A stretch of 63,696 nt of DNA, filler included, from Asterionella formosa (Eukaryota), in the NCBI GenBank assembly GCA_002256025.1. It is 16 parts of 16 records of this genome, joined end to end, with 100 filler letters (N's around TTAATTAATTAA, not from the genome) between each part and the next. Parts side by side here need not be neighbours in the genome. Positions count along the whole stretch, not along the records: positions 4,003 to 7,901 come from NKIB01013843.1; positions 8,002 to 11,896 come from NKIB01013844.1; 14 more parts are not named here. The stretch is one strand, 5' to 3'. Each line of letters begins with the position of its first letter. Position 1 is the stretch's first letter. Positions 1,336-62,475 of this stretch are shown one piece after another. The notes under the pieces are model-generated. The model saw nothing but the letters and a program-made list of their open reading frames with translations, did not search any database and was not told the DNA's origin. The position numbers and the translations under genes were made by a program.

Positions 1336-1399
1336 TGCTTGCTAAATAAGAAGGTAAACTGGAAAAGCATAACTGCCTATCTTGTCACTATTGTTGGGT

Positions 1400-1790
1400 T
1401 CCATTTCAGTGGGTACTAGTCAAAAGGACAACTATCAGTTACACTGTCTAGCACAGAAGCCAAGTATGTGGCAATGTTCTACTAGTGTGCACAAGAGATC
1501 AAGTTTGTAGCAATGCTACTTAATGAGGTTACTAGTGGTAGCTAAGATTATTTTACCAAATATCCTACATGATGATAATAAAGGAGCTATTTTTATCTCG
1601 AAGAATCAGCGGATCGGAACAAGGACAAAGCACATTAATATTAAGTATCATCATGAGAAGGACATGATTGGAGGTCATTTTTATCAGGTCAGAAAATATC
1701 TCTGCAGACATTAGTATGACCAACAAGGACGTCAAGGAACAGATTCATGCAAGATTGTTTGAACCAGTTCTGGGCTGAATGATGTGACAG
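1400..1790 (+). pseudogene. Ty1/copia RNase H relic
   Basis: Frameshifted motifs VTLSSTEAKYVA and DNKGAIFISKN..GTRTKHINIKYH. Confidence 0.85.
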
Positions 1791-1815
1791 CTTCTCGAAC
1801 TTGGCAATGGGAAGA

Positions 1816-2100
1816 TGTCAAGAATTTTAGTTCGAGCCATGAGGATTGTGAGGATTGTGAACTCAACTGTAATCGAATGAGTCAAATCAAATGAATTGTG
1901 CTGCCAATCAGCAATCTAAAAGATCAAATTGTGACGACTTCTAAGAAAATGTTAAGTGGAAATTCGAAGAGAGTCATAGAATGACTTTGTGGGAAGTAAA
2001 GATGTATGAAAATAGTTTAGCCTATACCTTAAGAATTAAAAATTGAGTTATTGTTTGACAGGAAGTTCAAATAGCTCATCTAGTAGAAAGGCTAGCAGAG
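1816..2100 (+). mobile_element. Copia 3' LTR (right boundary uncertain)
   Basis: Starts TGTCAAGAA right after a purine-rich tract (GGGAAGA) downstream of the RNase H; aligns by eye with 39523-39830. Confidence 0.7.
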
Positions 2101-2644
2101 AAAAGTAAGTGGTTCTTGGGAGTACCACTAGTAGTACATGAGAATCTACGTAAAGAACACAACCCGCCCATGGGAAGGAGAACAAAGCTTTTCACCACAG
2201 TACCACAGGTAGAGATCCCTTGGAGTAGCAACATGACTAGGCCAATGGTAAAAACAGTATCTAGCAGCTGGCACAACTTCATAATTAAACATTCTGAGGG
2301 TGTGAAGCAAGAAACTAGATCATGAAATAGCAAATGATGCTAAGGTCTTACTATGCCTTATGATAGATGATATATGACCATATTATGTTGTATCAACAAA
2401 AAAAAGGGGAATTAATAATAGTGATTGGTCTCCCAGTAGGCTAGCTTGACTTTCTGACTTTCCTCTTAGCTGGGCTTTCGAAATTTTGAGTAGGAGAACT
2501 TTCTATCAACTCAGAACTACTCAGAACTTCTTGGACTTTGAATCTGAAAAAATCAAAATGAACCATAAATGAGACATTTGCACAAAACAAAAGGACGCAT
2601 TCAAAAAAATCCATGAAGTCACCAAAATTGTACTCACCAGAAGT

Positions 2645-3757
2645 TCACACCTTTGACATTTCATGCTGCCCCCCCTTTCCCTCTTCGACCTCCCCTGCAG
2701 GAGGAGTTGGTGATGGGCTGGGTGACTTCCCAGATGCTGTCATGTCACTTCTGCTTTCGTTCATCTTGATAAGGGTATATAGGAGTGATCCGCCCAAGAC
2801 AGTAAAGATCCCCAAAACACCCATAAAGGTGGCTGGGTTTCCCCAAATGTAAAATGCCATCATGGATTGGACTGCAGCCTTGGCAGTGCCACTAATATTG
2901 TGGGAAAGTGGACTTGTTGCCTTGATTTGAAGGACAGTGACAATACCAATACTGAAACCAAAGAAACCAGCAACAGTCATGGCAGCCCAAAATGCCGAAG
3001 AAATCAGCTGCTTGTCAAGAGCTTCAATAAGGGCTGGGCCTTCAAAATATGCAACGAGGGGAATGAACAAGATACAAGCATTGATGTTGTTGTAATATGT
3101 GAGTCTCCAGTGATTGTCATCCACGGCAGGCAAAACTTTCTTGGTATATATAGAGTTCAGAGAGACAAAGAGGGAAGATGCGACACCAGCAATGGTACCC
3201 TTCATCGAAAAGTTCATCTCGCCCTGTGCTCCCATGATGAAACCCACAATTACAACCAAAAGACAAGCAAGCGTCGTACACGACGTAGGAATTCCGAGTA
3301 AAACGCGAGAGAAAAAGACATTGAATACAATGGTGAGAGATCTGGCAACATTGTAGAAGGACACTTCGACCCACTTCAAACAAAGATTGTTGAAGGTGAT
3401 CATTCCCACAAAAACCAATGAGAGGGGAAAGATCCGCCTGGCAGTTCCAACAAGGTATTCCGCCTTTGGAAATTGGGAGAAAAAAGAAGGTTTGCGCTGG
3501 CTCACATTGGAACTTCCCTCTTCTTGACTGACTGCAGAGTAACTTTGTTCTGTGGACCGGTTTGCGAGCTCGCCACACTTTCCGGCAGCAACGCAAATAA
3601 GTGCAGTGACGATACACTGAAACCATGTCACGAACAGAGGTGCAGGAATGGAAATTCCTTCATTTGACATAAGAATCTTGTTGAGGTAGACCATACTGAT
3701 CGAAATGAACCAGTAGGCTGCCACAACAGATGCAACGTAAACTGCGTTGTCATTCAT
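2645..3757 (-). CDS. SLC35C1: GDP-fucose transporter (SLC35C1-like nucleotide-sugar transporter)
   Basis: Intact 370-aa multi-TM ORF with YWFISISMVYLNK, FNNLCLKWVEVSFYNVARSLT and QIKATSPLSHNISGTAKA motifs. Confidence 0.92.
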   Translation of the reverse strand: MNDNAVYVASVVAAYWFISISMVYLNKILMSNEGISIPAPLFVTWFQCIVTALICVAAGKCGELANRSTEQSYSAVSQEEGSSNVSQRKPSFFSQFPKAEYLVGTARRIFPLSLVFVGMITFNNLCLKWVEVSFYNVARSLTIVFNVFFSRVLLGIPTSCTTLACLLVVIVGFIMGAQGEMNFSMKGTIAGVASSLFVSLNSIYTKKVLPAVDDNHWRLTYYNNINACILFIPLVAYFEGPALIEALDKQLISSAFWAAMTVAGFFGFSIGIVTVLQIKATSPLSHNISGTAKAAVQSMMAFYIWGNPATFMGVLGIFTVLGGSLLYTLIKMNESRSDMTASGKSPSPSPTPPAGEVEEGKGGQHEMSKV

Positions 3758-3902
3758 CGTGAGGAAGTCTTTGCGAATAGACGAGTGTGCGAGGTGTGCT
3801 TGGATAGTTGATTGGGGAACGTTCTTTCGCGTTTCCGATGAGACTATTATATCTAATGTGATAAAGTAGAGACTCTATCTTGAATCTTATAACAAGGGAG
3901 GA

Positions 3903-4002
3903 NNNNNNNNNNNNNNNNNNNNNNNNNNNNNNNNNNNNNNNNNNNNTTAATTAATTAANNNNNNNNNNNNNNNNNNNNNNNNNNNNNNNNNNNNNNNNNN
4001 NN
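3903..4002. other. Artificial contig linker (first of 15; the others start at 7902, 11897, 15892, 19887, 23882, 27874, 31865, 35850, 39831, 43812, 47790, 51768, 55751, 59727)
   Basis: Identical 100-nt N-run/TTAATTAATTAA/N-run spacers with stops in all six frames; the contigs between them shrink from 3902 to 3870 nt. Confidence 0.98.
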
Positions 4003-6481
4003 GAACCAGTACAGCTCATGGCAGGATTGCTACGTGATTCCAATATCATGCAACATTTTGTATGTCACCCACAAGTGAAACTTACAACTTGTGGAGAACG
4101 CATATATGACAAAGTAACTTCTGCGACTTGGTTTGAAAATGCATTCAACAATACTCCTGAATCAGAAAATGGAGTGTTGAAGACAGGGTGTTTATTTGTT
4201 GCCCTAGCAGTTTTCAGTGATGGTTCACCTATTGATAAACAAATGAAACATTCCGAGCATCTGCCCGTTTTTGCTGACAATGTTAAACTTAACGTTAGAA
4301 GGAAGAAAAAAAGTTGATGGATGGCAATTAGTATCTCTTTTGCCAGACATTGAAGTCAGTGATCTGGAGAAACAAATGAATCATAAGTTATCTGGTGACG
4401 ACTTGTCCTTTTGTAGACTCAAATTATATCATTATGTTAAAGGATTTCTATTGTCGCCTTTCGAAGATCCAAACAAGTCATATCCCGATGGAAAATTGCC
4501 ATGTATCCCACCTGAGTATTGTGTCTCCCAATCTAATTGCAAATAAGCAACAGCAAATGAGTGGTGCCGTGTTATATTGCAATAAATTATTATGCCTGCA
4601 CTAATAAATCATTTTTTTGGTGGTGACTTAGAAGGATTATTTGGTGCAACTCCATTTGAGGTTCTTCATCAGTTACTACTTGGAATATTTAAGTACATTT
4701 TGGAATCTTTCTACCATTATCGGACTATCCCTGAAGAATGGACATGTCATTTTAAAGAAAGAAAATCTCCAGATATTCCAGAAAACATCTCCGATCATAA
4801 ACGAAACACTGAAACAACAGACTCTGCTTTTCTTGATCAAGAGCAACCGAAGAAATGGGCAAAGACCAAAAAGGACACACGCACCAGTTATCAAAATATC
4901 TACACTGGCAAAAATCAAGACCCAACACTTGTACCAGCACCAGAAATGTATTTTCGAAACTATACCATACTTCGAACAAAGTACTAGATATATCAATAGT
5001 CATTTGGAAAGGCAAAGCGATCGTCATATTCCAAAATTGTCTAACAGATCTGGGATGACAGCGTTGTCAAAAATGTCAGGGCAAGAAATTCCCGGATTAT
5101 GTCTGTTAACCATTTTTTCAATGGGTGGAATGATGGGTTCAGAGAACATGCACCTAGAAAAGGATTTCACATTGCTGTTATGGTTAAGTATATCTATCAA
5201 TTACACTTTATTCATACCGCAGTATACATCAATATGTATTGATATTTTTGCTGTTATGGTTAAGTATATCTATCAATTACACTTTATTCATACCGCAGTA
5301 TACATCAATATGTATTGATATTTTAGAGGAAAGGATTAAGAGATTTATGTCAGTTACTAAGATTATGATTGATCCCCAACGGGAAATGATATCTCAAATT
5401 GGCTTACAAATGGCAAAATTTCATGGAATGAAACATGACCCTCATCTGATGGAAAAGTTCGGATCTCCTCTTAATTTCTTTGGTGGATATTTGGAGTCTT
5501 TTTGAAAGACAAATTGAAACGACCCAGTAAGCGTGTGAACGGACAATTACATCGATTAAAGCATGACATTTTAACAAGGTCATATGAAACAAGGCAGTTT
5601 GCATTGGCACGAAAAATTGTTTTTGTAAGTGATTCATTACATACAGAAAAAACAAAAAAAGAAGAAGAGTAGAGAAAATACCATCAATGTAAATGAGGTT
5701 ATTTCAACAGAAATTGATTTCGAAAGAATGATTCCGGATACAATGATGTGGTTGCCTAGTAGGTCGCCTGAAAATTTGGGAATATCGCCTGCTACCAAAA
5801 TCCATTCACCAGCCCTTCCTGTTAAAGCTCAATTCTCTCTCTGCTTCATCATCAAATGGTCTATGGACTATAGCAGGAGTCCCTAATAAGATTGGGCATG
5901 TATCACGGAGTAAGGATGCACCCTTGTCTCAATTGGTTCATCCTAATTTACCAAAGGGGGCCAACTACGTAAAGAGCATTGCGAATTCAGTAATAGAAAT
6001 AGCAAAAATCAAAAGTCTTGAAGATGGGATTGGGCCTGTTTCCATTGTAAGAATCTCTGGTCGTGAATGGTTTGACTGGGTCGAAGTGAACTGGGAGAAG
6101 GGAGATGGATCAAGTTTCTACACAGTTCCTGCAAAACTACTTCTTTGGGGAAATGTTATTTTCTCCAACTCAACAACCATTCTCTTAGCGTGTATTCGTT
6201 CGTTGAAAAGTTCAACTGAAATGAAACTTCATAAACGTATGTTTTTTGCAAGAAGAGACACCTTATGCAATGATACAACTGAATTGAGCGTTGATGAATT
6301 TCATAACATACTTTCGGCAGCATTTGTTGTTCCTGCTTTGAAACCTCAGGAATCAAGGAAATCTCTGAAACCGCAAGAAGTTTTGGAACAGATACGGAAA
6401 GATTATTTTTATGTTGACATGCCTCCACGTAATTTATGGAAATCAATCGGGTGGGACCAAAAACTAACAAGCGAACGTTGA
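4003..6481 (+). pseudogene. Plavaka-like (CMC-related) DNA transposase, family A, degraded
   Basis: Fragments AVFSDG, ATPFEVLHQLLLGIFKY, KFHGMKH..MEKFGSPLNFFGGYLES and REWFDWVEVNW; several frameshifts; paralogue at 59827-62041. Confidence 0.7.
5172..5323 (+). repeat. 76-bp tandem duplication that frameshifts the transposase
   Basis: TTGCTGTTATGGTTAAGTATATC... at 5172 and 5248; single copy in the paralogue at about 61672. Confidence 0.9.
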
Positions 6482-6599
6482 TAAATATATAAAAATAATA
6501 TAAATGATAATGGGAACAATATATATTCGCATACTAAATTGGTTATTATGAGGTTTTCACTAACTACAATTTCCTAAGAAATGATTATCCAATGGTCCA

Positions 6600-7856
6600 T
6601 TATTTTTTCTTTTTCACTCCCAAAGAACCTAAGATGGTCCTTCTCGTTTCGTCCGAAATTTTGCTTCTCCACTTTTCAACTGCAGTTCGATATGAGTCTG
6701 CAAACTTCTTCAAGTTGATTCCAGAAGGGCTATCATCAGATACAAAATTTTCTTTCAACATTTTGTCAATTTTGATGCATCCAGAAATTTTGCCAAGAGG
6801 TGCATGATTATACCATTTGAAGGGAGCAAGTTTGTCATTGCTTTGTTGTATCATGGATTTTACGTAGACAACTTCATCCTTCTTGAAAGAAGAGTTGCAA
6901 GGAACTCGTCCAAATACTTTGTTCAACATCTTTAAATCTAAATAGGATGTCAAGATTTTGTCGATACAAAATTGAAGAACAGTTATTTCCAACTGAAACA
7001 TATCCTCACGAGAATTTTTCGTTGTCACTTGAGGCCAAACTGTTCCAAGATGAAAGTATGTTGACTTGGTTGGTGGGTCAGATGTAATGGATAAAAAATC
7101 GTCTGTTAGATCTGTTGCTGCCACCTGACGTTTTAAAGCTTTCCAGGACTCAGTCTCCAAACAGAAATGTGCCCATTTGCCAAGAAAGTTGGTTTTGCCA
7201 TTCCTTTCTAATTGCAATAGAGTTTCCAACACTTTCACAATTGTAAAAGGTCCACATGACCATCTACTGTCATCTTCTGGTTGAAATAACATGGAATCAT
7301 GCATATTCAGTGGCCATACTGATCTGCAATGGTGCTTTGGTGCCAGTATAGAAAGATTCCAAGAACCCAATTTCTTCAGGTATATGGAATTCTTCTGGAA
7401 GATATCCTGCATTGGTGCATAACAATTCCAATTCTTTTCTGCATCCGGGGATGATGCAGTACTTACGAACAAGGTGAAATACTTGATCATAATGTTCATC
7501 CAAACTTGCATCTTTTCCTGGATCACAGACTTGACATAATCCATCATTTATAGCAAAAAGATAATGCACAAATTATTCTTTTCCTCCTCATCTGATCTTT
7601 TGCAATACACAATTAGCACATAGTTACTTTCGTGATGAAGTGGATGACAATCACCTTGGTATATATATGGATTGTTATTACCCTTTTCTGGGTTCTCATC
7701 AAGATTAAATATAACCTTTACATCACTTGGATGAAGTTCATGAATTATATAATGGATCATAGAGGTAATTGTTTCAAGGTCCCAATATGCAAGATCTTTA
7801 AAATCTGAACATGATTTTTTGATACCTTTGACTCCATAAAATACAGAGGCGTACAC
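6600..7856 (-). pseudogene. Ulp1/C48-like cysteine protease-type gene, convergent with the transposase, one in-frame stop near 7548
   Basis: FQPEDDSRWSCGPF resembles the Q-x-D-x-x-(S/D)CG catalytic motif; truncated paralogue at 62098-62366 in the same arrangement. Confidence 0.5.
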
Positions 7857-9334
7857 CAGCTGGTCTAACAGAATATAGCTAACTTCCAGACTATGGATAT
7901 TNNNNNNNNNNNNNNNNNNNNNNNNNNNNNNNNNNNNNNNNNNNNTTAATTAATTAANNNNNNNNNNNNNNNNNNNNNNNNNNNNNNNNNNNNNNNNNNN
8001 NCTCCATCAATTACATAATTATTAAGATTAACACACCACTATCAAAATATTAGTCATTACAATCCATAAATACTACCAGTTGTTTCATCCTCCTCATCTT
8101 CAGATGATGAGGTTTGGTCATCATGAGAGTGTTCAGCATCAGCATTGATTTCAATATTGATGGAATGTGATTCATCGCAGTTGCTGCTACTGGAAATGCT
8201 AATAAAATGAATACACTCTCAAGTAGAATGCTCTATTTCTTGCTGATGTCCTCCAGCATGATGGTAACTTTGCAAGATGAAATGGAATCATAACACTGAA
8301 AAGCTTAAGGCAACAAGCTTTAACTCCTTTTCTCTGTCATTGCAGTTTATTTGCATGCTTCGATTTCGGCTGTAAGCTTCACTTGATAAGCCCAGAAATC
8401 CGTTTCCAGGAGAGGCTGTTGAAAATATCATGCGAGTAAATTATAAAAACATTTATGCCAACAGCAAATGGATGAATAAATATTTGCGCATGAGTAATAC
8501 ATACCCCGTGTTGGACAGCTGTGTCAGTATGATACCCATGGTATATCAGGAATACCGGTACCCTGGTACCCTAAAAAGACGATCCCAAAGATTTTTATTA
8601 AGTCGTGTTTAGCTCTGGAGTACTGCCTACAGTAAGTACAGTGCATCAACTCTATAAATTTCATACCGTTACATCGTGTCTACGAACAATGTTGTCTATA
8701 GCTCTAACTGTATGTATCAAAGCATACAAATCATGTCATACACATGGATCAATACATACTGATAGGTTTGTTCATGCCCTTGAGTAATTACAAAAAATAT
8801 CGTTTGTCCGTAAAGTTTATGCACATGCATCCCCAGTTGAGAAAGACCGAAGCTACAAAGAATTCAAAATGTTTGCCGCCAATTGGCTAACGCACCGCCA
8901 ACACGTCCTAGCCGGCATATCCAATTTTGCTGATGACAACCATACATAGTATGTACTGGTACTTGCCATCGCTTGATTATCTGAAACGTGTGAAACATCA
9001 ATACACGGTACCAGTCCGGAGTAGCGAGTATTCCGAACAACATCGACAACTGTCAAATCGTTCGTCTGTTTTAAACACATAGGGAGATGAACTCGTTCCG
9101 TACTTCTTTGAATATTCGAATATTCGGAAATGTATATTCAGCTGTCATTGCTTTTCACTATAGAGCAAGAAGGACATGATGTTGCACTTAACAAATATAT
9201 ACTTATACCGGTACATAGTAAAGTAATATCGTAATAGTAACTCTCCAGTTGTTTGAACGGATCTGTACAAATTGTTTGTTGCTACTGAATATTCAGAATT
9301 GCTGGTGTTGAGGTACGAACAAACCAATGTTAAC

Positions 9335-10141: not shown

Positions 10142-10957
10142 TGGGCATGGGAAGGTTGGTGTCTTGTTTGGTCAAATTTAGTTCCATACACTGGCAAAAA
10201 TAGATAGCTCGTGTATAATTCCACCGTTAACTGTAGCTAGTCTGAGTGCATTGAAAAACACGTACTCCACCACTTCAAGAATAACCAGCAACTAGATCAA
10301 TGAAACTTCTATGATAGAATGCCTAGCGTGATGGATCCATTGTTCTCCTTGCATCTCTTCGAATGATGTCCACACAAATTCATACTGATTCAAGTTGCTT
10401 TGCTTCCCTTGCACCACAGTTGTGGAGTCAAAGTAATGGTAAAATCAAATTGAAAACTTCAGGATTAGTGAACAAAGACCTTACCTTCCCAAATGCTGCA
10501 ATATTTCACCATGGCATAAATGACATAAAAACAATAATGCTCTGCCTGGTTAAAGAGTGTTTAGGACCATCTAGTATTGATGTGGTCATGGCAGCCTTGA
10601 CAGTCAATTCTTCCTACTACTTCACCAAATGTCTTCATTTATTATGACTAATGTATACTTAATTTTCCTCGAGCCCCCAATGTACACTGCTGTGACTGAA
10701 TTTGACTGATTTCCAAGACTTTGATGAGACTTCCCTTATACTAGAAGACCTAGGTACATTTGATTAGTTCTACAGGATGGTGAGCACTTTTCAAATGTAT
10801 ATTAGTATGATCACCATTTTCGTCAAGTGACAAATGAAAAAGTTCTTTACCTTTCAAGATAAACGCGACATCATGGTGTTATTGTTGACTTAGATTCTCG
10901 TTGTTAATTTTAGTGTTATTACAATAAATATCTTCCAGTTGCATTGACTATACAATT

Positions 10958-11896
10958 TTGGCAATTATATTGTCTGGAGTTCAAGAGACTCAGAAATCTG
11001 GTGGCTTCAAGTATAATTTCAATTTCCATGGCAAACAGCATAGCCTGGTTGTAAAGGTACCGGTCGGGTTGGTGCTTGGCGATGCGAAAGGATTGGACAA
11101 TCAGTGTGGGAGGATTAAATATTACCTGAAAACTTTTCGTCTCTGTCGGGAATGTGATTGTTCATACGACAGTTTAGACAAACCATCAATCAAATGCTCT
11201 CCAGTAGGGCAAGTGGGTTATGCTGCCCTATGAGGAAGGGACGACAAAACACTAATGGATGCTGTGTCACAACGTTTTATTACACCTTGCTGGTATGCGT
11301 TGGATTTTGGTGGAGATCCATTGGGAATCAATGGCCATTGCCCTCCTGAAAAGTTGCACTCAATACATGAGGGAATGATGCGTTATCTCATTCTTCTGTT
11401 CTCGGTAAAGTTCGGCACTGTTACCTCTGCTCAGGGGTTGAAAAATAGAACCGCTTTTGATACATTATTCATAAAAGTGTCAAAGATGATGTAACATCAA
11501 AGCGATCGGGATATGCCAAGGTGCAATTTTCATGGTGGATTCCATGGATGTTGTCCAAAGATTACAGGAAATGAAACAGATGGGGTAATGCTTGTTGCTT
11601 GTTTGGTAATGGCTACAGACGCCGGAATCAAGCTTTGCAAGGATGAGGTTGGAATGTCAATGCAGGAAATAAAAGACATCCAAATAATTTTCGAGGGCAT
11701 GGTTTGTTATAATTCCTGGTTCAGCCAAGAAAGTTATGACGTACATCGATTGATGGGAATTGATTGTCGATCCATTGTCAAGTACTACACAAAATTAGTC
11801 AAGATTTTCCCAAGAGAAACGACAGAGCAAGGCTGGAAAATGACAAAGTTTCATCAGCAGATGCATACTGTCCGAAATATCGAACGGTTTGGCAGT
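10958..11896 (+). pseudogene. Plavaka-like transposase, family B, degraded and cut by contig end
   Basis: VLGDAKGLDNQCG..CRECDC, CPPEKLHSIHEG and WKMTKFHQQMH..IERFGS motifs, with a frameshift and a stop. Confidence 0.7.
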
Positions 11897-15991: not shown

Positions 15992-17500
15992 ACTAATGTT
16001 GCGTCTCTCTCCCTTCTGTTAGTGTCATTCTGAACTCGCCGGCTATTCCGTTTGATCGGTTTTATTGTCCTATGCAGTTACAGTAACAATGAGAAGGAAT
16101 GACTTGTTAGCTAGACATGTTACACTGACACAACATCACGCCATTCCATTGTATCCTCTTGCTTACTTCACTTACCACAGCCAAATCAAAGCAAGTGATG
16201 CATAAGTCTGTAATAGTAAATTGTCAATAAATTCTGGAAGAAGTAAGTTTCAGGTTGCTTTCCAATGTTGCCGAATAAAACTTACCGATTCATTTTCGTT
16301 AGCTTAACTTTGAGAGAAGGTGAACGTGGCGTGGTGTCTGTCAGTTAGCTATGTTCCATCAGAAGTGAATAGGTTCAACGACAATAGCACTTACCAATTT
16401 TGTTTTGTTTTACATTGGTGCTCCCCAACAGGCGAAACGAGCTGTTGAACCAACTGAGAAAAAAGGAAATGTGCGTTTAGTTTACAATTTGTTGTTGTCC
16501 TGCCTCCCAATGATTGTCATCCAAGTACCACATTGATGGCTTCATTACCTTAAACATACTCCATCCTTCGAAGGCGCAATGTGTCGAAGCCACAATGTTT
16601 TTCGATATGTATTGCATAAACTTTCCTTTCTTGTCATGTGCTTTACTACGGTGTTTCTTTTCATGAAGCAGGCATTGTTTGTGAACATGACAGAACGATT
16701 TCAAATCTATTTGCCATGTATATAGTTATAAAATTTGTAAATATTTAAATATATCAAGTGTCGTACATTTATAAAAAGCAAAGGCACTCTCAATATGGAA
16801 CGTCTGGTATTGTTGAGAGGATCATATTCGCATATAGATAATTCGAAAATATTCAATGCACGATATGTCCATGATTGTTTTCCGCGACTTCGTGTACCGG
16901 TACTGTTTTTTTGAAATTTGTTTGCATCAATATTTTCTACATCTGTTGGAACTAATTATTTAGACCATTCAATTGGTGTACTAAGTCATAGCCCATTTGT
17001 ATCATTATTTTACGCGAGGATTTTGGTAGCAAATTGTTTAAGCCCCTTTTTTGGGCGGGAGTTCTTCATGTGTACCGGTACATCATACCACAATAACATT
17101 TTATTATATATATACAGAATACCAGTAGCAAGTAGGAAGTGATATACTGGGGGTACCAGGTATTCAGAGTACCAGGTAGTAAGCGAGCAACAGAGCACCA
17201 CCATATGTTCATGACTGTTGCTACTACAGCAGGACAGTAAATCATCATAGTCTTAGGATTGTACGATCGTAAAATTGAAAGAGAGTAGTCGGAGTAGTAA
17301 GCGAGCAACAGAACACCATATGTTCATGACTGCTGCTACTGCAGCAGAACAGTAAATCATCATAATTTAAGGATTGTATAATCGTATAATTGAAAACAAG
17401 ATATGCTATTACTCAAACTCGGTTCTGATTTTGTATATGATAATGTAAATAGCACTGTTGGTTTTATGGTATCATATCTAGACAGCAGCGTAAAATATTA
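15992..17500 (+). repeat. Multi-copy non-coding repeat upstream of the orphan spliced gene
   Basis: Aligns with about 30800-31379 (+) and 53400-54875 (-). Confidence 0.85.
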
Positions 17501-17605
17501 TATGTATTGGCTGATGATTCATTTCATTGTAGCTTCCAACACCTGATTTTAAGATCATCAAACTTTAAGGAAGACAATGACAACAGTTATCTAGTAGTAC
17601 AAGCA

Positions 17606-19030
17606 ATGTCTTCAAAAAACCATCAAAAGGTGCATGGAAACAAGCGACATGTGGCAAATACTGCCGGTATTGAACAAAGTAGCAAGTACCAAAATGAGTT
17701 AACAAAGAAAAAGTGAATAGGCGATTATCCAAAGGAACCCAATCGGCGACAGGGAGTTAGTGGGGGTACTACCCCACCATCAGCTACTAGCACAAAGGAT
17801 CCCGTAATTGATACTGAAAGCAATGATGACGTTTTTTTTTCAGTTGTTGATACAAGAAAAATGGCTCCTGTTGATGATACCATTAATAACTCCCGGATGC
17901 AGATGGACAACATGGTACCATATATTAAATTTTCTTAGTCGCACGGACCAACAAGTACCTGACAAGCTGAGGGGAAAACATTTTGCACTTGCCAAAGGAT
18001 ATTATCAATTGGTCAATGAACTCAATCACTACAAAGGTCGTAATTCGGTTCAAAACTCGCTTGTCCATACGAGGTTATCAAGAATCTTCAATTTCAACAG
18101 CCTTATCAGAACGTCGTTCCCGCTTAGCTAAAGTGGAACCGATCCATCAATTGTCACAAAGGTTGTGAGTTTTATTTTCAAGACCAAGAAGTTTTGCTGT
18201 GAACATGTAAGTTTGAGGTGATAGTTCGTGAATTGCAGGTACTGTAAAACAGAATATCAATCTAATGTGCTTTTTTCTGGTCCAAAAGAGACTCAAACAT
18301 CCCGCCCTATCTGGTCCAGGTAGTAGTATGAAAGAAATTTCTAATCACAAACAGGATTGGTTTGCCCAATGTTGCCTAGCTCGGCTATACATTGTGAAAC
18401 CGGAGTTAGGCAAAGAATTGGAGAGTGACCCAGAGCTTACCGATTTCATATGGAATGGTTCTGATGCACTACTTCCGATGAAATCAAACCATTGAAAGTA
18501 CCAACAAGGCACGTTTAGATTATATTAATTCAACATTTGGTGGCATGTGCATTAAAAAGTTGAGCGAGAGAATGTCAGAATTATATTGAATAATCGATTT
18601 AAAGGAATCTTAGGTAAGTTCTTGCAGGGCAGGAGATGCTCTGCTGAAAGCATGATTTTTTGAGTCGGTGATTATATTCTATCAAATATGTTTGAATTTA
18701 AAATGGTAACATAATTCATGACACACCAACTGGTCTAACAGAATAAAACTTCCAGACTATGGATATTGATGACTCTAGCTATTAGGTGGGCGTTCACGCT
18801 TTATCATTTTGCGCACTCAAAAAAATTGATAGGGGAAGCCAAGCTTGTACCAGTCAATTTAGCCAAACGTTGGTCAACAGATGTCTTTTCAATTTGTCCA
18901 AAGCATTCAGAATTCCTTGGGATACCTTGTCTTCAACATCTGCTAGTATATCCTTGGCATACAAGACATCCTGAGCGAGGTAGATTGGCAAGCTTTTCAG
19001 TCTCACCGCATGTATACTTCTTACTCGTTC
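17606..19030 (+). pseudogene. Orphan spliced gene, probably a transposon accessory gene, degraded copy
   Basis: Paralogue of 51868-53341; GTAAGT donors at about 18207 and 18614; frameshifts; no recognisable domain. Confidence 0.6.
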
Positions 19031-29624: not shown

Positions 29625-30245
29625 CGTCTGCAAATAAAAACTATCATATTTCCATCATGCATCATAGGATTGTGATCATCTGATCATAATTTTTCGTTAT
29701 ATCATCTAGGAATATAAATGCCTTTGTAATTTAAATAGTAACCCTTTTGACTACATATATTTAATTATTATATGTATTGATTCTACTTGATTCCTGTATT
29801 CGAATTTCTTCGTAGGATAATGTACCAGTTCAAGTAATGTAATTTGGCTCGTCATTTCCATCCGTCATCACTCCGAGTTTTGCAACAACAACGAAATACT
29901 AGCGATGACAAGCGGAATGAATGTTTGCGATAACGTCTTCAATTTGTTGGTCAAGTGATCATTATATCTTCGAGTAATCGTCATGTGCAGTGAACCTTTG
30001 TTCATAATCATTCAATTAAGAGTTTACAGGAGAGAAGAAATCATTCGAACTCGTAATGGTTCCGCACACAGCGCACAAAGTATATCCGTTTCGTCCACTT
30101 CAGCACGACAATCTCGCCAATCAACTCGATAAACAAACACATTCTACTTGTTCTCGTTGAAATTTTCAATTCTCACATGATACTGCATCTACTATTGAGA
30201 TTCATCATAGAAAGAGATACGAAAATGTGCGTAACAGACTACTGG
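29625..30245 (+). mobile_element. Putative DNA transposon end B (CGTCTGCAAATAAAAA...)
   Basis: Interrupts the copia gag; inner part matches about 56560-57047 on the opposite strand. Confidence 0.6.
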
Positions 30246-31379
30246 GTCTGCAAATAAAAAGTATCATGCATATAGGATCAAGGGTATCGTACGCTAAGTG
30301 GCACAGGATTTTCGTATATATGATAATTTTTGGATCAAAAATATGATCAAGGTATCTTGTATCTATGATGATTTATTAATATGTTACCAACCTTGAAGTA
30401 AATTGATAATAAGAGCATTATCATCACACAATGTATATAAACTGATCAACAACATTTCTCCTACATTTCTCGTCAATATCATAAACCTTCTCATATTATT
30501 TTCACTTCTTGTGATCGCCCGATGTAAATTATAACTACAATGCATCCTAAAATCAGCTAAACTATATGATATCATGTGAATTTTTTCATCATATATCTAT
30601 CTTAAACATGATCATAAAAGTAATCACAAGGATTGTTAAAAAAGGATTGGAACGGATCTTAATTTAACTATCAAATTTAGCATTGCTATCTATGATTTTA
30701 CAGGCCAGCGACCCGACGTCTCTCTCTACTTGGCTCAATGTATATTGTTCCTGTCTCGCGCTTTCCTTCCTCTATTCTGAATCTTGTGTGAGGCAGTGCC
30801 AACTAATGGTTGCGACTCTTTTCCTGCTGTTGGTGTCACTCTGAACTCGCCGACTATTCCGTTGTTTGATTATTTTTTTTGTCCTATGCATGCAGTTACA
30901 GTTACAATGAGAAGGAATGATTTGTTAGCTAGTCATGTTACATTGACACAACGATTTTCATGCTGCAGCAGGCATTGTTTGTTAACATGACAGAATGATT
31001 TAAAAAATATATATGCCATGAATATAGTAATAAAATTTGTAAATATATATATAAATATATATCAAGTGTTGTCTACATTTATAAAATTCAAAGGCGCTCT
31101 CGATATGGAACATCTGATATTGTTGAGATGATCATACTCGCATACTATACATAATTCGAAATTACTCAATGCACTATATGTCCATTGTTTTCCACGACTA
31201 CGTGTACCGGTATTGTTTCTGAAATTTGTTTGCATCGATATATTCTCTGTCCGTTGAAACTAATTATTTAGACCATTCAATTGGTGTAAGTCATAACCGC
31301 AAGGGTTTTGGTAGCAAATTTTTTAAGCCCCTTTTTTGGGCGGGAGCTCTTCATGTGTACTGATACATCATATGACAAT
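30246..31379 (+). mobile_element. Putative DNA transposon end A plus the non-coding repeat
   Basis: GTCTGCAAATAAAAAGTATCATGCATATAGGATCAAGGG matches the minus strand at 55142-54877 and leads into the 15992-17500 repeat. Confidence 0.7.
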
Positions 31380-51867: not shown

Positions 51868-53341
51868 TTTCATGGGTATCTGGATTGAAACCCAAATATT
51901 TTTGTTGTAATCGGAATTTTCCTTTCAGCACCAAGAAGCAAAATGCTTCTGTACTGGTATTGATCAGCAAACCAACAAAACGTGTTTGCAATTCACACTG
52001 TGCCCGAAGACTGAGTTGAAATTTGGTCACACCAGATTTGTCTCCTGTTAAAAATGGTTCTCCACGGCTTGTCCTGCCTATAAAATACACCGGAGCAAGA
52101 ACATCACGCCAGACTTGGTATCCATGGCTTCCCCTGTCAATGTCCTTTGACTGCGCAAAACGATAAAGCGTCAACGACCACCTAATAAAGTCATCAATAT
52201 CCATAGTCTGGAAGTTATATTCTGTGAAACCAGCAGGTGTGTCATGAATTATGTTAGCAAACATGTTTGATAAGAATATAATCCCCGACTCAAAAAATCA
52301 TGTTTTCGGAGCATCTCCCTGCAAGAACTTATCTAAGATTCCTTTAAATTGATTATTCAATAGCTACATTCTGACATTCTCTCAACTTTTTAATGCACAT
52401 GCCACCAAATGTTGATTTGATGTAATCTAAACGTGCCTTGTTGGTACGTTCAATGGTCTGATTCATTGGAAGTAGTGCATCAGAACCATTCCATATGAAA
52501 TCGGCATGCTCTGGGTCACTCTCCACTTCTTTGCCTAACTCCGGTTTCACTGTGTATAGCCAACATAAGCAACATTGGGCAAACCAATCCTGTTTGTGAT
52601 TTGAAACGCCTTTCATACTACGTGGACCAGATAGGGCGGGATGTTTGATTCTCTTTTGGGAACAGAAAAAAGCACATTTGATTGATATTCTGTTTTACAG
52701 TACCTGCAATTCACAAACTATAACATCAAACTTACATGTTCACAGGAAAACTTCTTGGTCTTGAATATAAAACTCACAACTTTTGTGACGATTGATGGTT
52801 CAATTTTAGCTAAGCGAGAACGACGTTCTGATAAGGCTGCTGAAATTGAAGAGTCTTGATGACTTTGTATGGACGAGTTTTGAACCGAATTACGACCTTT
52901 GTAGTGATTGAGTTCATTGACCAATTGATAATATCCTTTGGCAAGTACAAAATGTTTTTCCCTCAGGTTGTCATGTACTTGTTGGTCCGTGCGATTAGAA
53001 AATTTATGATATGGTACCATGTCGTCCATCTGCCTCCGGGAGTTATTAATGTCATCATCGACAGGAGCCATTTTTCTTGTATCAACCACTGAAGTAGAAA
53101 CGTCATCATTGCTGTCAGTATCAATTACGGGATCCTTTGTACTAGTAGCTGATGGTGTCCCCATCGACGATGGGGTATTACCCCCAACATCTCCCAATCG
53201 CCGATTGGGTTGCTTTGGATAATCGCCTATTCGCTTTTTCTTTGAAAACTCATTTTGGAACTTGCTTCTTTGTTCAATACCGGCAGTATTTGCCACATGT
53301 CGCTTGTTTCCATGAACCTCTTTATGGTTTCTTGAAGACAT
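51868..53341 (-). pseudogene. Orphan spliced gene (transposon accessory candidate), paralogue of 17606-19030
   Basis: Three colinear ORF blocks; GTAAGT donor after FSCEH; C-terminal INTSTEAFCFLVLK. Confidence 0.62.
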
Positions 53342-53399
53342 TGTACTACTTGATAACTGTTGTCCTTGTCTTTCTTAAAGTTTGATGATCTTAAATTCA

Positions 53400-53865
53400 T
53401 TTACTGTCCCGCTGCAGTAGCAGTAGTCATAGACATATGGTGTTCTATTGCTTGCTTATTACTCCGACTACAGCTTTTCAGTTTCACGATCATACAATCC
53501 TAAAACTATGATGATTTACTATCCCAGCACTGCAGTAGCAACAGTCCTGATTATATGGTGTTCTATTGGTTTTTAGTTTTACGATTATACGATCCTAAAA
53601 CTATGATGATTTACTGTTCGAATGTAGTAGCAACAGTCCTGAACATATGATGTTCTATTGGTTTTTAGTTTTACAATCATACGATCCTAGAATTATGATG
53701 ATTTACTGTTCGAATGCAGTAGCAACAGTCCCAAAAATATGATGTTCTATTGGTTTTTAGTTTTACGATCATACGATCCTAAAACTATGATGATTTACTG
53801 TCCCACTGCAGTAGCAACAGTCCTGAACATATGGTGTTCTGTTGCTAGTTTACTACTCCGACAAC
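53400..53865 (+). repeat. Minisatellite, about 5 units (92-bp core period)
   Basis: GATCCTAAAACTATGATGATTTACTG..GCAGTAGCAACAGTCCTGAACATATG.TGTTCTATTG repeated; only about 2 units in the paralogue at 17175-17400. Confidence 0.9.
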
Positions 53866-55142
53866 CCCCAGTATATCACTTACTACCTGCTACTGGTACT
53901 ATGTATATATATATGATATATTGTTATTGTCATATGATGTACCGGTACACATGAAGAGCTCCCAACCAAAAAAGGGGCTTTAACAATTTGCTACCAAAAC
54001 CTTTGCGGCAATTGAACGGTCTAAATAATTAGTTTCAACGGACGTAGAAAATATCGATGCAAACAAATTTCAGAAACAATACCAGTACAGGTAGTCGTGG
54101 AAAACAATGGACATATAGTGCATTGAGTATTTTCGAATTATGTATATGCGAGTATGATCATCCCAACCATATCAGATGTTCCATATCGAGAGAGCCTTTG
54201 AATTTTATAAATGTATAACACTTAATATATATATATATTTACAAATTTTATTACTATAAGCATGGCATATATATTTTTGAAATCGTTCTGTCATGTTAAC
54301 AAACAATGCCTGCTGCTTCATGAAAAGATACGTCGTAGTTAAGCACATGACAAGCAAAGAAAGTTTATGCAATACATAACGAAAAACATTGTGGCTTCGA
54401 CACATTGCGCATTCGAAGGATGATGGAGAATGTTTAAGGTAATGAAGCCATCAATGTGGTACTTGGATGACATTCGTTGGGAGGCAGGCAGCACAACAAC
54501 AAATTGTTAACTAAACGCACATTTCCTTTTTTCTCCGTTGATTCAACAGCTCGTTTCGCTTGTTGGGGAGCACCAATGTAAAACAAAACCAAATTGCGTA
54601 AGTGCTCTTGTCGCTCGTTGGACCTATTCACTTCTGTTGGAACAAAACTGACAAAACGTTTACCTTCTCTATAAGTTAAGCTGACAAAAATGAACCAGTA
54701 AGTTTTATTCGACAACATTGGATAACCGAAACTTACTTATTCAAGAATTTACTGACAATTTACTGTAATAGACTTATGCATCAGTTGCATTGATTTGTGG
54801 TAAGTGAAGCAAGAGGATACGGTGGAATTGTGTGTCGTTGTGTCAATGTAACATGACTAGCTAACAAATCATTCCATCGGGCGATCTCGAGAAGTGAAAA
54901 TAATATGAGAAGGTTTATGATATGGACAAGAAATGTTGTTGATCAGTTTATATACATTGTGTGATGATAATGCTCCTATTATCATTATACTTCAAGGTCG
55001 GTAACATATTAATAAATCATCATAGACAAAAGATACCTTGATCATATTTTTGATCCAAAAATTATCATATATCCGAAAATCCTGTGCCACTTAGCGTACG
55101 ATACCCTTGATCCTATATGCATGATACTTTTATTTACAGACG
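53866..55142 (-). mobile_element. Non-coding repeat plus putative transposon end A
   Basis: Reverse complement of 30246-30520 joined to the 16090-17150 repeat. Confidence 0.75.
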
Positions 55143-55750: not shown

Positions 55751-56034
55751 NNNNNNNNNNNNNNNNNNNNNNNNNNNNNNNNNNNNNNNNNNNNTTAATT
55801 AATTAANNNNNNNNNNNNNNNNNNNNNNNNNNNNNNNNNNNNNNNNNNNNTTTATTCAATATTACGTATCATACTTTGGTGATGTATGCATCGATGTAAC
55901 CTTATCATGATATCACAGTATCATCTTATCAATCATGATGAGATGATTGGGAAGCAACTGTATTCTGCATTGTGCTACAGGGTATATTATTATATCACGC
56001 AATTTAGTAGCGAAGTCACTCCGCCTGTAATGTA

Positions 56035-56490
56035 CAAAAGTCGACAGTGCACATACCGGTACTCACACGCTAATCAGGTTTGAGGAAACGGACAGTGGTT
56101 CCAACGAGCGAATGATGATATGGTACCAATTTTTCCAACGAAAGAACTTGTCTCTCTATTGATGAGGATGACACGGTCACCGACTTTTCCAGGAGCAAAC
56201 AACAATGAAGAGACCCACTTGTCGCTCTATTGATGGTAACAACGATACGGACAAGTTCAACAGTGAATACAAGAACAACATACCATTGAAAACAAGTCGA
56301 CAGTGTGTGCACGCACACGCCAAGCAGGTTTGAGGCAACGGACAATTCCAACAAGCAAATGACGATACAGATATCAAATTCTTCTTACGAGCAAACAACA
56401 ATGAAAAGAGCCACTTGCTTTCGCTCTCTTGATGGTATCAAAGATGCGGACAAATTCAATAGTTAATTCAAGTACAGTATACCAAATGCA
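56035..56490 (+). repeat. Diverged tandem duplication (200-250 bp units)
   Basis: AAGTCGACAGTG..CAGGTTTGAGG.AACGGACA..GAGCAAACAACAATGAA..CGCTCT.TTGATGGTA occurs twice. Confidence 0.75.
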
Positions 56491-57047
56491 GAAATGAGCG
56501 AGCGATATGAAAATGAAATACATTCTAATCAGAATCATTCTATAACTATAGCTATGTGGACAGTAGTCTGTTACGCACATTTTCGTATCTCCTTCTATGC
56601 TGAATCTCAATAGTAGATGTAGTATCATGTGAGAATTGAAAATGTCAATGAGAACAAGTAGAATGTGTTTGTTTACGGGTTGATTGGTGAGATTGTCAAG
56701 CTGAAGTGGACGAAACGGATATACTTTGTGCGTTGTGTGCGGAACCATTACAAGTTCGAATGATTTCTTCTCTCCTGTAAACTCTTAATTGAATGATTAT
56801 GAACAAAGGTTCACTGCACATGACGATTACTCGAAGATATAAAGATCACTTGACCAAAAAATTGAAGACGTTATCGCAAACATTCATTCCGCTTGTCATC
56901 GCTAGTATTTCGTTGTTGTTGCAAAAATCGGAGTGATGACGGATGGAAATCACGAGCAAAATTACATTACTTGAACTGGTACATTATCCTACCAAGAAAT
57001 TCGAATACAGGAATTAAGTAGAAACAATACATATAATAATTAAATAT

Positions 57048-57410
57048 CTGTGAAACTGTAGGTTTGCCCTACCAGCATTCCCTTCTTCCCCTTGTTTCAA
57101 TACCCGGTCGGAACATGACGTGGCTACTGTGAAACTGTACCTATTACTACGCTGGTACTGTGAAACTGTAGGTTTGTCCTACCAGCATTCCCCTCTTCCC
57201 CGTTGTCTCAATACCCGGTCGGAACATGACGTAACTACCGGTACTGTGAAACTGTACCTATTACTACCCTGGTACTATGAAACTGAGTATGTCGGTGCTG
57301 CATCGCTTCTGTGAAACTGTACCTATTACTATGCTGGTACTGTGAAACTGTAGCTTTGTGCTACCAATCTAATGTCTATTACTGAGTATGTCGGTGCTGC
57401 ATCGCTTCTG
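57048..57410 (+). repeat. Patchwork repeat built on CTGTGAAACTGTA (7 copies)
   Basis: Copies at 57048, 57127, 57158, 57244, 57275 (variant), 57309 and 57340; intervening blocks are themselves duplicated. Confidence 0.9.
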
Positions 57411-59826: not shown

Positions 59827-62041
59827 AAACTCTCCAAGGATTGAATTCAGAGATCATGCAATATTCAGATTTCCAAGATCACACCGGCTTTCTCCCTGAA
59901 AATGCAATGGAAATGCCCCTTCCTCCTCAATTTCAACTTCCAAGTAAACATTCTCTGAACATGCGCGCATCCAATCGAATTAGAACTCATGTTATTCCTT
60001 AACGAGAATTAACTACCTTCCACCAGTTTACTTTGATCATCTAATGAAATGGCTGTTCAAGGCCAAAGCAATGAAATATTTTGATAGAAGGTATGTATCA
60101 AGCTCCATCCTACCAGACTTTGAAAAAACGCATGGATATTTCATTTCCACCAACATTAGCTGGTGGTCAACTGTTGACCAAACAAATACAGATTGATGAA
60201 AATTCAAACATGATCATCCCACTCACACTCCATTATTTCGAACCAGTACAGCTCATGGCAGGATTGTTACGTGATTCCGATATCATGCAACATTTTGTAT
60301 GTCACCCACAAGTGAAAGTTACAACTTGTGGAGAACGCATATATGTCGAAGTAACTTCTGCTACTTGGTTTGAAAATGCATTCAACAATTCTCCTGCATC
60401 ATAAATGGATTGTTGAAGACAGGGTGTTTATTTGTTGCCCTAGCAGTTTTCAGTGATGGTTCACCTATTGATAAACAAATGAAACATTCCGAGCATCAGT
60501 TTGTGTTGACAATGTTAAACTTAACGTTAGAAGGGAAAAAAGTTGATGGGTGGCAATTGGTATCTCTTTTGCCCGACAGTGAAGTCAGTGATCTGGAGAA
60601 ACAAATGAATAATAAGTTATCTGGTGATGACTTGTCCTTAGTATGTCGACTCACATTCTACCATTCTGTTACAGGATTTCTATTGTCGCCTTTCGAAGAG
60701 CGATCCAAACAAGTCATACGATATTTGGGTTCATGGTCTTGGTATGACAAAAGTTTATTTCCAGATTGGAATGATCATTGGTGATACAGAAGAGCACAAT
60801 AAAATTTGTGGTTTCAGGGGTGGTAATGGATTATATCGACGATATGTTTGTCGTGATTGCCTGGTTTCAACTGAGGATGCTGATAATCCTGATATTGGAT
60901 GTGAACATCGTAAAGTGTCAGATGTTAAAAAGTTTTTAAACAATTTTAAACAAGTTTCTTGACAAAAATGCATATCCCGATGGAAAATTGCCGTGTATCC
61001 CACCTGAGTATTGTGTCTCCCAATCTAATGGCAAATACGCAACAGCAAACAAGTGGTGCCATGTTATATCGCATAATCCTATAATGCCTGCACTAATAAA
61101 TCATTTTTTTGGTGGTGACTTAGAAGGATTATTTGCTGCAACTCCATTTGAGGTTCTTCATCAATTACTACTTGGAATTTTTAAGTAGTTACATTTTGGA
61201 ATCATTGTACAATTATCGGACTATCCCTGAAGAATGGACATGTTTTTTTAAAGAAAGAAAATCTCCAGATATTCCAGAAAACATCTCCGATCATAAACGT
61301 AACACTGAAACAACAGACTCTGCTTTTCTTGATCAAGAGCAACCGAAGAAACGGGCAAAGATCAAAAAGGACACACGCACCAGTTATCAAAAATATCTAC
61401 ACTGGCAAAAATCAAGACCCAACACTTGTACCAGCACCAGAAATGTATTTTCGAAACTATACTTCGAACAAAGTGCTATATATATATTAATAGTCATTTG
61501 GAAAGCAAGGCAAAGCGATGGTGATATTCCAAAATTGTCATACAGATCTGGGATGACAGCTTTGTCAAAAATGTCAGGGCAAGAAATTCCCGGAATGTGT
61601 CTGTCAACAATTTTTTCAATTGGTGGAATGATGGTGGGTTCAGAGAACATGCACCTAGAAAAGGATTTCACATTGCTGTTATGGTTATGTGTATCTATCA
61701 ATGACACTTTTTTTATACCGCAGTATACATCAACATGTATTGATATTTTAGAGGAATGGGTTAAGAGATTTATGTCAGTTACTAAGATTATGATTGGTCC
61801 CCAATGGGAAATGATATCTCAAATTGGCTTACAACAAAATGAGCGTTGTTGAATTTCATAACATACTTTCGGCAGCATTTGTTGTTCCTGCTTTGAAACC
61901 ACAGGAATCAAGGAAATCTCTTAAACTGCAAGAAGTTTGGAACAGATACAGAAAGATAATTTTTATGTTGCCATGCCGCCACGACGTCATTTATGGAACA
62001 AATCAATCGGGTGGGACCAAAAACTAACAAGCGAACGTTGA
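59827..62041 (+). pseudogene. Plavaka-like transposase, family A, second copy
   Basis: Paralogue of 4003-6481; keeps IIGDTEEHNKICG..CRDC, lacks about 875 bp near 61835. Confidence 0.72.
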
Positions 62042-62097
62042 TAAATACACAAGAATAATATAAATAATAGTGATAATATAGTTTCACATACTAGTAG

Positions 62098-62366
62098 TTA
62101 AGTTATTAGAAGGTTTTCACAAACTAAAATGTCCTGAGGAATGATGAGCTTGGATGATCCCAATGGTCCTTCTCGTTTTGTCCGAAATTTTGCTACTCCA
62201 CTTCTTTTCAACTGCAGTTTGATATGAGTTTGTAACTTTTTCAATTTGATTCCAGAAGGGCTATCTTCACGAGAATTCGTCGCTGTCACTTGAGGACAAA
62301 CTGTTCCAAGATGAAAGTATGTTGACTTGGTTGGTGGGTCAGATGTAACAGATAACAAATCGTCTG
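62098..62366 (-). pseudogene. 3' remnant of the Ulp1-like gene
   Basis: Matches 6540-7105 with about 270 bp deleted. Confidence 0.8.
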
Positions 62367-62475
62367 TTTGTTCATATTACTAGAAAGCTAGGGAGGTACA
62401 ACAAGGGATTTCATTTCATGACAAAACTATTAGAGGTGATGGTATTACCCACTCTATACAAGGCAGTATTTATAC

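What the first reader, a model, noticed from the sequence alone, without database searches (positions are those of the whole stretch)
4003..7901. Candidate large multi-gene DNA transposon: Plavaka-like transposase, Ulp1-like protease, orphan spliced gene, CGTCTG ends
Seen: the transposase and a convergent SCG-motif ORF occur together in two contigs (4003-7856 and 59827-62366). The last 49 nt of this contig (7853-7901) match the orphan gene at 18723-18767. That gene sits behind a multi-copy non-coding repeat, which in two contigs starts from a (C)GTCTG(C/T)AAATAAAA end (30246, 55142). Known: CMC and Mutator elements often carry Ulp1 proteases, and Plavaka transposases were defined mainly in fungi. 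Inference: these pieces are one element larger than 10 kb with non-CACTA ends, now fragmented. The link rests on a single 49-nt junction.
Basis: partly seen in the sequence, partly recalled or inferred. Interest (0 to 1): 0.72.

Follow-up and report, generated by a model that had tools for sequence, protein, structure and literature searches.

The report
Broken 12-kb three-gene diatom transposon
This stretch is a broken middle piece of a 12-kb DNA transposon repeated many times in a likely diatom genome; besides its transposase gene it carries a spliced gene of unknown family and a gene predicted to encode a SUMO/ubiquitin-type protease, which would likely help it escape silencing.

Summary
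The element is real, but the 49-nt junction is not the link. Window 4003-7901 is a dead middle piece of a 12.1-kb family laid out as left end, 92-bp repeats, spliced orphan gene A, Plavaka transposase, convergent gene C, right end. The ends are 23-bp inverted repeats starting CGTCTG (356 exact 22-mers genome-wide, 0 in the control). A 2-bp target duplication flanks 8 of 10 copies with both ends. Of 34 copies, 15 hold all three genes. Sister copies pass Pfam's Plavaka cut-off. Gene C misses Peptidase_C48, but its model matches CE-clan (Ulp1/SENP/NEDP1) proteases and it keeps His-Asp-Gln-Cys. The junction is the start of a 123-bp gene A patch inside gene C, seen in three contigs; gene A really lies upstream of the transposase. 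No intact transposase was seen. The one copy with intact C lacks the transposase, and spliced RNA contigs from two studies span it. Giant Plavaka with cargo (red algae) and Ulp1 in plant CACTA/MULE elements are known. The CG ends, this cargo and the diatom host were not found in my five literature searches. This scan reported the family before on other DNA of the genome.

The parts
4003..6481 (+). Plavaka transposase remnant, about residue 260 to the end of a ~1,170-aa gene. Frameshifted; a 243-bp deletion removes the second catalytic Asp and the CxxC; a 96-bp deletion near 6052
   Evidence: maps to family consensus 5159-7897 at 94-97%; sister copies pass PF18759; motifs
5172..5324 (+). 77-bp tandem duplication inside the transposase
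   Evidence: self-match 100%
6600..7853 (-). gene C, about residues 305-720: CE-clan (Ulp1-like) protease domain plus C-terminal part, frameshifted; Cys codon of WSCGP at 7254-7256
   Evidence: 97% to consensus; intact sister P0001; fold matches
7853..7901 (+). first 49 nt of a 123-bp patch copied from gene A (end of intron 2, start of exon 3) into gene C; cut by the contig end
   Evidence: same junction in 3 contigs; whole patch seen in two of them
15992..18843 (+). another, older copy: left subterminal region, tandem repeats, and gene A (start 17606, truncated)
   Evidence: consensus 551-3430 at 82-90%
29625..30244 (-). right end of a copy; 23-bp terminal inverted repeat at 29625-29647
   Evidence: consensus 12097-11475, 97%
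30246..31379 (+). left end of another copy, directly abutting that right-end piece, internally deleted
   Evidence: consensus 2-703 and 1219-1612
51868..55142 (-). left end (terminal repeat from 55142), 92-bp tandem repeats (about 53399-53866), gene A from ATG 53341, cut by the contig end
   Evidence: consensus 1-3685 at 94% with a deletion
55851..57051 (+). right subterminal region with ~100-bp direct repeats
   Evidence: consensus 10778-11965, 96%
59827..62368 (+). second copy of the transposase with the 3' tip of convergent gene C, two internal deletions
   Evidence: consensus 4758-6733 and 7690-8154, plus a short gene C piece

Best explanation
The stretch is a broken inner piece of a 12.1-kb Plavaka-type DNA transposon family with 23-bp CGTCTG inverted ends, 2-bp target duplications and three genes; it likely spread by cut-and-paste, with gene C predicted to be a SUMO/ubiquitin-like protease that would loosen host silencing and gene A likely a partner protein binding the element's own repeats. 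Shown: ends, TSD, gene order, Plavaka profile hit, catalytic motifs in the consensus, splicing of gene A, decay of the window's copy. Inferred: that the DDE enzyme pairs the two ends, excises and inserts with a 2-bp stagger (established for this clade); that the 123-bp patch and internal deletions come from gap repair switching templates after excision; that gene C removes a ubiquitin-like tag from chromatin or from the transposase (about 45%); that gene A binds the 92-bp repeats, as plant TnpA or VANC proteins do (about 30%, by analogy only).
For: Ends: 356 exact 22-mers, 0 for the reversed control; the two ends match at 22 of 23 bases. TSD: 8 of 10 two-ended copies, against 36 of 493 mismatched flank pairs, P 3e-8. 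Colinearity: 15 of 34 copies hold at least 200 bp of all three genes; C3835, C3301, C13530 and C13563 have both ends, all three and a TSD. Plavaka: 32.9 and 36.1 bits against cut-off 26.3; D-D-E, CxxC and HxxxH motifs in consensus and relatives. Gene C: the first 15 Foldseek rows are poxvirus I7L or NEDP1 chains (best E 6e-3); in the Foldseek-free search 29 CE-clan-type chains (Z 8.4 to 4.7; best rmsd 4.2 over 145 residues) rank above the first unrelated one at Z 4.0 (clan labels recalled); Atlas neighbours include C48 clusters; His, Asp/Asn, Gln and Cys kept in three families down to 34% identity. Past selection on C: 10 of 48 copies of an older subfamily show pS 0.09-0.12 but pN 0.04-0.07. 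Silencing pressure: CpG transitions 0.078 against 0.021-0.024 at other cytosines. Gene A: both introns spliced in 3 of 4 RNA runs laid.
Against: Gene C has no Pfam C48 hit at E<=1 and no PDB sequence hit. Its model is middling (pLDDT 60, five sequences), no Foldseek row reaches E 0.001, and Z 8 is only moderately above background. The CE fold also covers deubiquitinases, viral processing proteases and acetyltransferases. Two of 10 two-ended copies lack the 2-bp TSD. No intact transposase of this family among 150 scored of 453 candidates. Gene A has no family, homolog, Atlas hit or usable fold. The ends fit neither published Plavaka type exactly.
Confidence: 0.8

Rival explanations
1. Same element, but gene C is not an anti-silencing SUMO protease: it is a deubiquitinase, a NEDD8 protease, a processing protease for the element's own proteins, or a CE-fold acetyltransferase.
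For: Foldseek ranks poxvirus I7L and NEDP1 above Ulp1/SENP; the best Atlas cluster is mostly viral; no C48 hit; structural identities are only 7-16%.
Against: The Foldseek-free search puts SUMO- and NEDD8-type proteases in 8 of its first 9 rows; the Gln-x7-Cys-Gly pattern is kept; Ulp1 cargo recurs in CACTA and MULE elements (PMC2528002, PMC13317346, passages).
Confidence: 0.35
2. The transposase-less copy with intact A and C (C14015) is merely the youngest neutral deletion derivative; its transcription is leftover promoter activity with no function.
For: It is the copy closest to the consensus (98.1%); pN/pS against the family majority is 0.85 for C and 0.46 for A exon 3 on only 31 and 11 changes. 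At the family's rate, staying intact has P about 0.03 (my arithmetic), unremarkable for a copy picked after the fact from 49.
Against: 0 of 48 other copies has gene C free of stops and frameshifts; the same junction is in RNA contigs of a second study with its own alleles; the junction is single-copy in the assembly.
Confidence: 0.5
3. The three genes belong to separate repeats nested by chance, or the 49-nt junction marks the true order with gene A downstream of gene C.
For: The genome is rich in nested insertions, and most copies are fragments.
Against: The same order and spacing recur at independent loci with different flanks and TSDs; gene C resumes 35 bp further on after the 123-bp patch.
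Confidence: 0.03

Closest known systems
PlavakaA and PlavakaB DNA transposons of Agaricomycotina, CMCT clade (PMC12730594; passages, supplement list and one supplement row seen)
   Same: PF18759 transposase with C(2)C and H(3-4)H motifs; inverted ends; 2-bp TSD as in PlavakaA (2 bp) and PlavakaB (2-3 bp).
   Different: Ends are CGT..ACG, not TGT..ACA (A) or CATCA..TGATG (B). The fungal cargo is a TET/JBP dioxygenase; 'Ulp1' occurs 0 times in that paper's main text. Host here is likely a diatom.
Giant Plavaka elements of the red alga Bostrychia (bioRxiv 10.1101/2025.02.11.637652; passages seen, supplements not seen)
   Same: Large (17-19 kb), high-copy, mostly decayed, several accessory genes, tandem repeats next to an accessory gene, proposed anti-silencing role.
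   Different: Cargo there is PAG1 (unknown), PAG2 (adenine methylase plus SET) and PAG3 (ParB-like plus 2OG oxygenase), no protease named in the passages. Whether gene A is related to PAG1 could not be tested. A sister family here carries an oxygenase-like gene.
ULP1-carrying plant CACTA elements (Cactavine, PMC2528002) and Kaonashi/VANDAL MULEs (PMC13317346); passages seen
   Same: A DNA transposon carrying a Ulp1-fold gene; the review says its function is unknown and links the carrier elements to anti-silencing.
   Different: Those are recognisable Ulp1 domains captured from plant genes, in CACTA or Mutator elements. Gene C is too divergent for Pfam C48 and sits tail-to-tail or behind a Plavaka transposase.

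Membership tests
Plavaka transposons (CMCT clade) | Transposase matches Pfam PF18759 above its cut-off | tested here: met
   32.9 and 36.1 bits in two sister copies, 37 bits in C14504; cut-off 26.3. The window's own fragments stay below it.
Plavaka transposons (CMCT clade) | [quoted passage not shown] | tested here: met
   FSDG, IGDT, CRDC, FHGMKHYPH and YLES in the consensus, mostly kept in relatives; residue roles assigned by the motif description in PMC12730594. The window copy has lost IGDT and CRDC.
Plavaka transposons (CMCT clade) | Terminal inverted repeats and 2-3 bp TSD | tested here: met
   23-bp TIR; 2-bp TSD in 8 of 10
CMCT clade, usual termini | 5'-CA..TG-3' ends (most members) | tested here: not met
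   Ends are CG..CG
PlavakaA | TGT..ACA termini | tested here: not met
   CGT..ACG, one transition away; a few copies read TGT or CAT, as CpG decay would give
PlavakaB | CATCA..TGATG termini | tested here: not met
PlavakaA / PlavakaB | Placement in the transposase tree | not tested
   Reference transposases were not available to the tree programs
Ulp1 / Peptidase_C48 | Match to Pfam PF02902 | tested here: not met
   No hit at E<=1 for the intact 784-codon frame or four other gene C frames, nor for a sister-family homolog at E<=0.5
CE-clan cysteine proteases | CE-clan fold | tested here: met
   Model pLDDT 60; top rows of two structure searches are CE-clan chains, Z up to 8.4, Foldseek E 6e-3; support moderate
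CE-clan cysteine proteases | His, Asp/Asn, Gln, Cys in that order | tested here: met
   Kept in three families; His and Asp also in five distant homologs, one of which has Ser in place of Cys; spatial contact not measured
Ulp1 / Peptidase_C48 | Cleaves SUMO | not testable with these tools
   Needs an assay

The most novel reading that the evidence does not exclude
A diatom lineage of Plavaka elements carries a two-gene counter-silencing kit (a repeat-binding protein plus a very divergent deSUMOylase), and one copy has shed its transposase while keeping the kit intact and transcribed across lake populations: a transposon anti-silencing module caught being domesticated, or serving the family in trans.
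Probability: 0.2. Interest if true: 0.72.

Novelty: new variant of a known kind. Interest (0 to 1): 0.45.

Why it matters
It extends Plavaka elements with defined ends and TSD to a likely diatom; the papers I saw name fungi, red algae and green algae. It adds a third terminus type (CGT..ACG) and a new cargo set. Why DNA transposons repeatedly carry Ulp1-fold genes is stated as unknown in a 2026 review (PMC13317346, passages). Here one intact gene C exists in a transcribed locus and can be cloned and assayed directly. Against that: large cargo-carrying Plavaka and Ulp1-carrying transposons are both known, the family looks dead in this assembly, and the mechanism is untested.

Tried and rejected
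Pfam on 19 window pieces gave no hit over a cut-off. Gene C against PDB sequences: one chance hit, E 0.82. Gene A exon 3: no Pfam family, no homolog among proteins of 430-2000 aa (shorter lengths not searched), no usable Atlas hit, and a model of pLDDT 39, so no fold search was run; its fold is open. An alignment spanning gene A's second intron misplaced the exon 2 rows and was dropped; exon 2 was never folded. The nearest database homolog of gene C (P0003) is a sister family of this same genome, 97% identical, so it is no evidence of wider range; most of the 83 hits are short fragments at 50-97% identity, and all five distant ones looked up are unnamed. The transposase 5' region had little or no cover in the two polyA runs; contigs cannot show absence. 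Runs X1 and X13 show the undeleted form at the A|C junction; whether they also hold the deleted form cannot be told from the cut tables. C14015's flanks could not be reached: four other contigs share the 200 bp at one of its ends exactly, and they are 97-98% like it further on. Rows dropped from the TSD count: C12477 (ends of another family; a 3-bp match) and a second, farther right end in C13530. One paper on VANDAL elements was not held.
Full report
Setting. The window is 16 unrelated contigs of about 3.9 kb joined by N spacers. 4003-7901 is contig C13843 of a 68-Mb, 15,436-contig assembly. Seven strong silicon-transporter matches (best 575 bits) and freshwater RNA runs make a freshwater diatom the likely host; that is an inference.

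Observation. The contig's DNA gave 125 matches among 40 scored of 715 candidate places. Nearly all long matches stop at window 7853, which already marks the last 49 nt as peculiar to this copy.

The element. Contigs C6255 and C9114 matched both the transposase piece and the orphan-gene piece, with the orphan gene upstream on the same strand. I fetched larger stretches, oriented 34 copies chosen from these hits, and built a majority sequence of 12,097 bp. Layout: left end; four 92-bp tandem repeats at 1694-2060; gene A from 2194 to 4074; transposase 4382-7897 (about 1,170 codons); gene C on the other strand, 10179 to 8016 (720 codons, no intron); ~100-bp repeats; right end. The two ends are inverted repeats matching at 22 of 23 bases and begin CGTCTG. 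The 22-mer occurs 356 times, the reversed control 0 times. Copies are 87.6-98.1% like the consensus, median 93.9%, and 15 of 34 hold at least 200 bp of each gene. Twelve inward-facing end pairs were found; after dropping two (another family's ends; a second, farther end), 8 of 10 have a 2-bp duplication (TC, CA, AA, TT, GA, TT, GT, TC), against 36 of 493 mismatched flank pairs. The misses are C13115 and C13498.

The junction. It occurs in 3 contigs. In the two that continue, 123 bp of gene A replace 35 bp of gene C and gene C then resumes. So it is an internal patch, likely from template switching in gap repair, shared by a few copies or alleles. It does not give the gene order.

Transposase. 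Window fragments do not pass Pfam, but 2 sister fragments do, and the family profile finds 43 places in the genome, 39 over the cut-off, from several families. The consensus has the D, D, CxxC, HxxxH and E motifs. The window copy has lost the second D and the CxxC in a 243-bp deletion and is frameshifted. Among 150 scored of 453 candidates none had a frame near full length; the longest, 551 codons, is of another family (150 of 161 rows listed). Collapsed young copies could be hidden in a fragmented assembly.

Gene C. One copy, C14015, has an open frame. It hits neither C48 nor PDB sequences. The Atlas lists an unnamed viral cluster first (0.95) and C48-bearing clusters at 0.93 and 0.91, a lead only. 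A model from five sequences reached pLDDT 60. Foldseek gave no E<=0.001, but its first 15 rows are I7L or NEDP1 chains. The wide search ranked 29 CE-clan-type chains (labels recalled) from Z 8.4 to 4.7 ahead of the first unrelated chain at 4.0. His, Asp/Asn, Gln and Cys are kept across three families. An older subfamily (10 of 48 copies) differs about twice as much at silent as at replacement sites, so the gene was under selection while the family spread. CE-clan protease: likely. Substrate: unknown.

Gene A. It has three exons. RNA contigs skip intron 1 (83 nt, GT..AG) and intron 2 in 3 of 4 runs laid; on C14015 intron 2 is 99 nt, GT..AG, in both polyA runs. Homologs at 30-60% identity sit in two sister families, so it is a conserved cargo gene. 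Four kinds of search left it unexplained.

The expressed copy. C14015 has lost the whole transposase, so A and C meet tail to tail; the junction is single in the assembly. A polyA contig of run X3 spans it with 1 difference in 2,956 letters, so X3 may be the assembly's own strain and is not independent. Run X6, a lake sample of another study, spans it with 9 differences and 3 inserted letters. Contigs show no strand, so sense transcription of intronless C is inferred. 0 of 48 other copies has C free of stops and frameshifts, but C14015 is also the least diverged copy and its pN/pS is 0.85. Youth and selection cannot be told apart here.

How it likely works. A DDE transposase pairs the ends, excises and reinserts with a 2-bp stagger; gap repair yields the deletions and patches. 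CpG transitions are 3.4 times those at other cytosines, which fits host CG methylation of the family and gives a reason to carry counter-silencing genes. I commit to gene C as a ubiquitin-like-tag protease acting against silencing (about 45%) and gene A as a repeat-binding partner (about 30%).

Known relatives. Fungal PlavakaA/B have 2-3 bp TSDs and other ends (PMC12730594; passages; supplement list and one row). Red-algal Plavaka are 17-19 kb with three other cargo genes (10.1101/2025.02.11.637652; passages). Plavaka are also reported from green algae and moss (10.1101/2025.10.09.681428; passages). Ulp1 cargo is known in plant CACTA and MULE elements, function unknown (passages). Searches: 'Plavaka' gave 20 papers, 16 listed, none on diatoms by title; diatom+transposon+EnSpm+Ulp1 gave 0; diatom+DNA transposon+CACTA+TIR gave 4, none on diatom elements by title; Zisupton+SUMO protease gave 0; a Ulp1-capture search gave 18. 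Repbase and most subscription journals were not searched, and unseen supplements may hold similar families.

Earlier notes. After forming this reading I saw eight notes of this scan on the same genome. Most describe this family or its sisters, and two also mention the expressed transposase-less copy. Two treat the oxygenase gene as a chance passenger. My check found it between gene A and the transposase in a sister family at several loci, though the cassette also occurs in other flanks.

Verdict. A real, well-defined new variant of Plavaka elements; the window's copy is dead; the cargo functions are untested. Interest 0.45.

Noticed in passing
window 33582-35018 (+); L216:7038-8423; L083:4933-5868 (-): ORF with an HxD...H...R pattern like a 2OG-Fe(II) oxygenase (motif recalled; no Pfam or PDB hit). 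Multi-copy: 148 matches. In C12103 it lies 0.9 kb behind the Plavaka family whose pieces are at window 10928-11896 and 35950-36552.
   Followed up: partly
G000 C11728, C2046, C13776, C8164, C6620, C8616: Sister family with a CGTCTG left end and the order gene A, oxygenase-like gene, transposase, convergent gene C. DNA runs on from oxygenase into transposase in 3 or more loci; the oxygenase cassette also appears with other flanks in about 6 contigs. Right end and TSD not found. Parallels red-algal PAG3 and fungal TET cargo.
   Followed up: partly
G000 C537:15567-23536, C7442, C6725, C13557: Second sister family with nearly the same ends but the transposase turned round (A forward, transposase and C both reverse); 2-bp TSD TT in C537.
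   Followed up: partly
proteins P0075 and P0081: Distant unnamed homologs of gene C carry a second, upstream Ulp1-like stretch (..CGPIAC / ..SGPIAC); in P0081 the downstream domain has Ser for Cys.
   Followed up: no
window 29625 and 28341-29626: The right end sits inside Copia-like gag sequence that matches 12846-14525 and 42689-42925; a left end then abuts the right-end piece at 30246: nested insertions.
   Followed up: no
window 39875-43105 (and 11997-14525): Copia-type retrotransposon fragments: zinc knuckle, protease barrel, integrase, SH3-like domain.
   Followed up: no
window 14885-15889, 47921-48946, 63021-63695: Harbinger-type transposase ORFs (DDE_Tnp_4 and Plant_tran for the first two; the third has no clear hit). 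A repeat starting at 31379, 35602 and 62791 precedes the third and may be its end.
   Followed up: no
window 45128-46164 and 49289-51164: Two related armadillo-repeat genes built of ~126-bp tandem units.
   Followed up: no
window 21960-23494 (-): AAA/STAND-type ATPase ORF with a short N-terminal ubiquitin-like-looking domain (ATPase_2 E 4e-6, below cut-off; the N-terminal label is by eye).
   Followed up: no
window 2645-3874, 24115-25326, 26122-27374, 38757-39368: Ordinary host genes: TPT-family transporter, ubiquitin-domain membrane protein, Pho88 plus ankyrin protein, and an IscA/HesB-like ORF (label recalled; no Pfam row returned).
   Followed up: no
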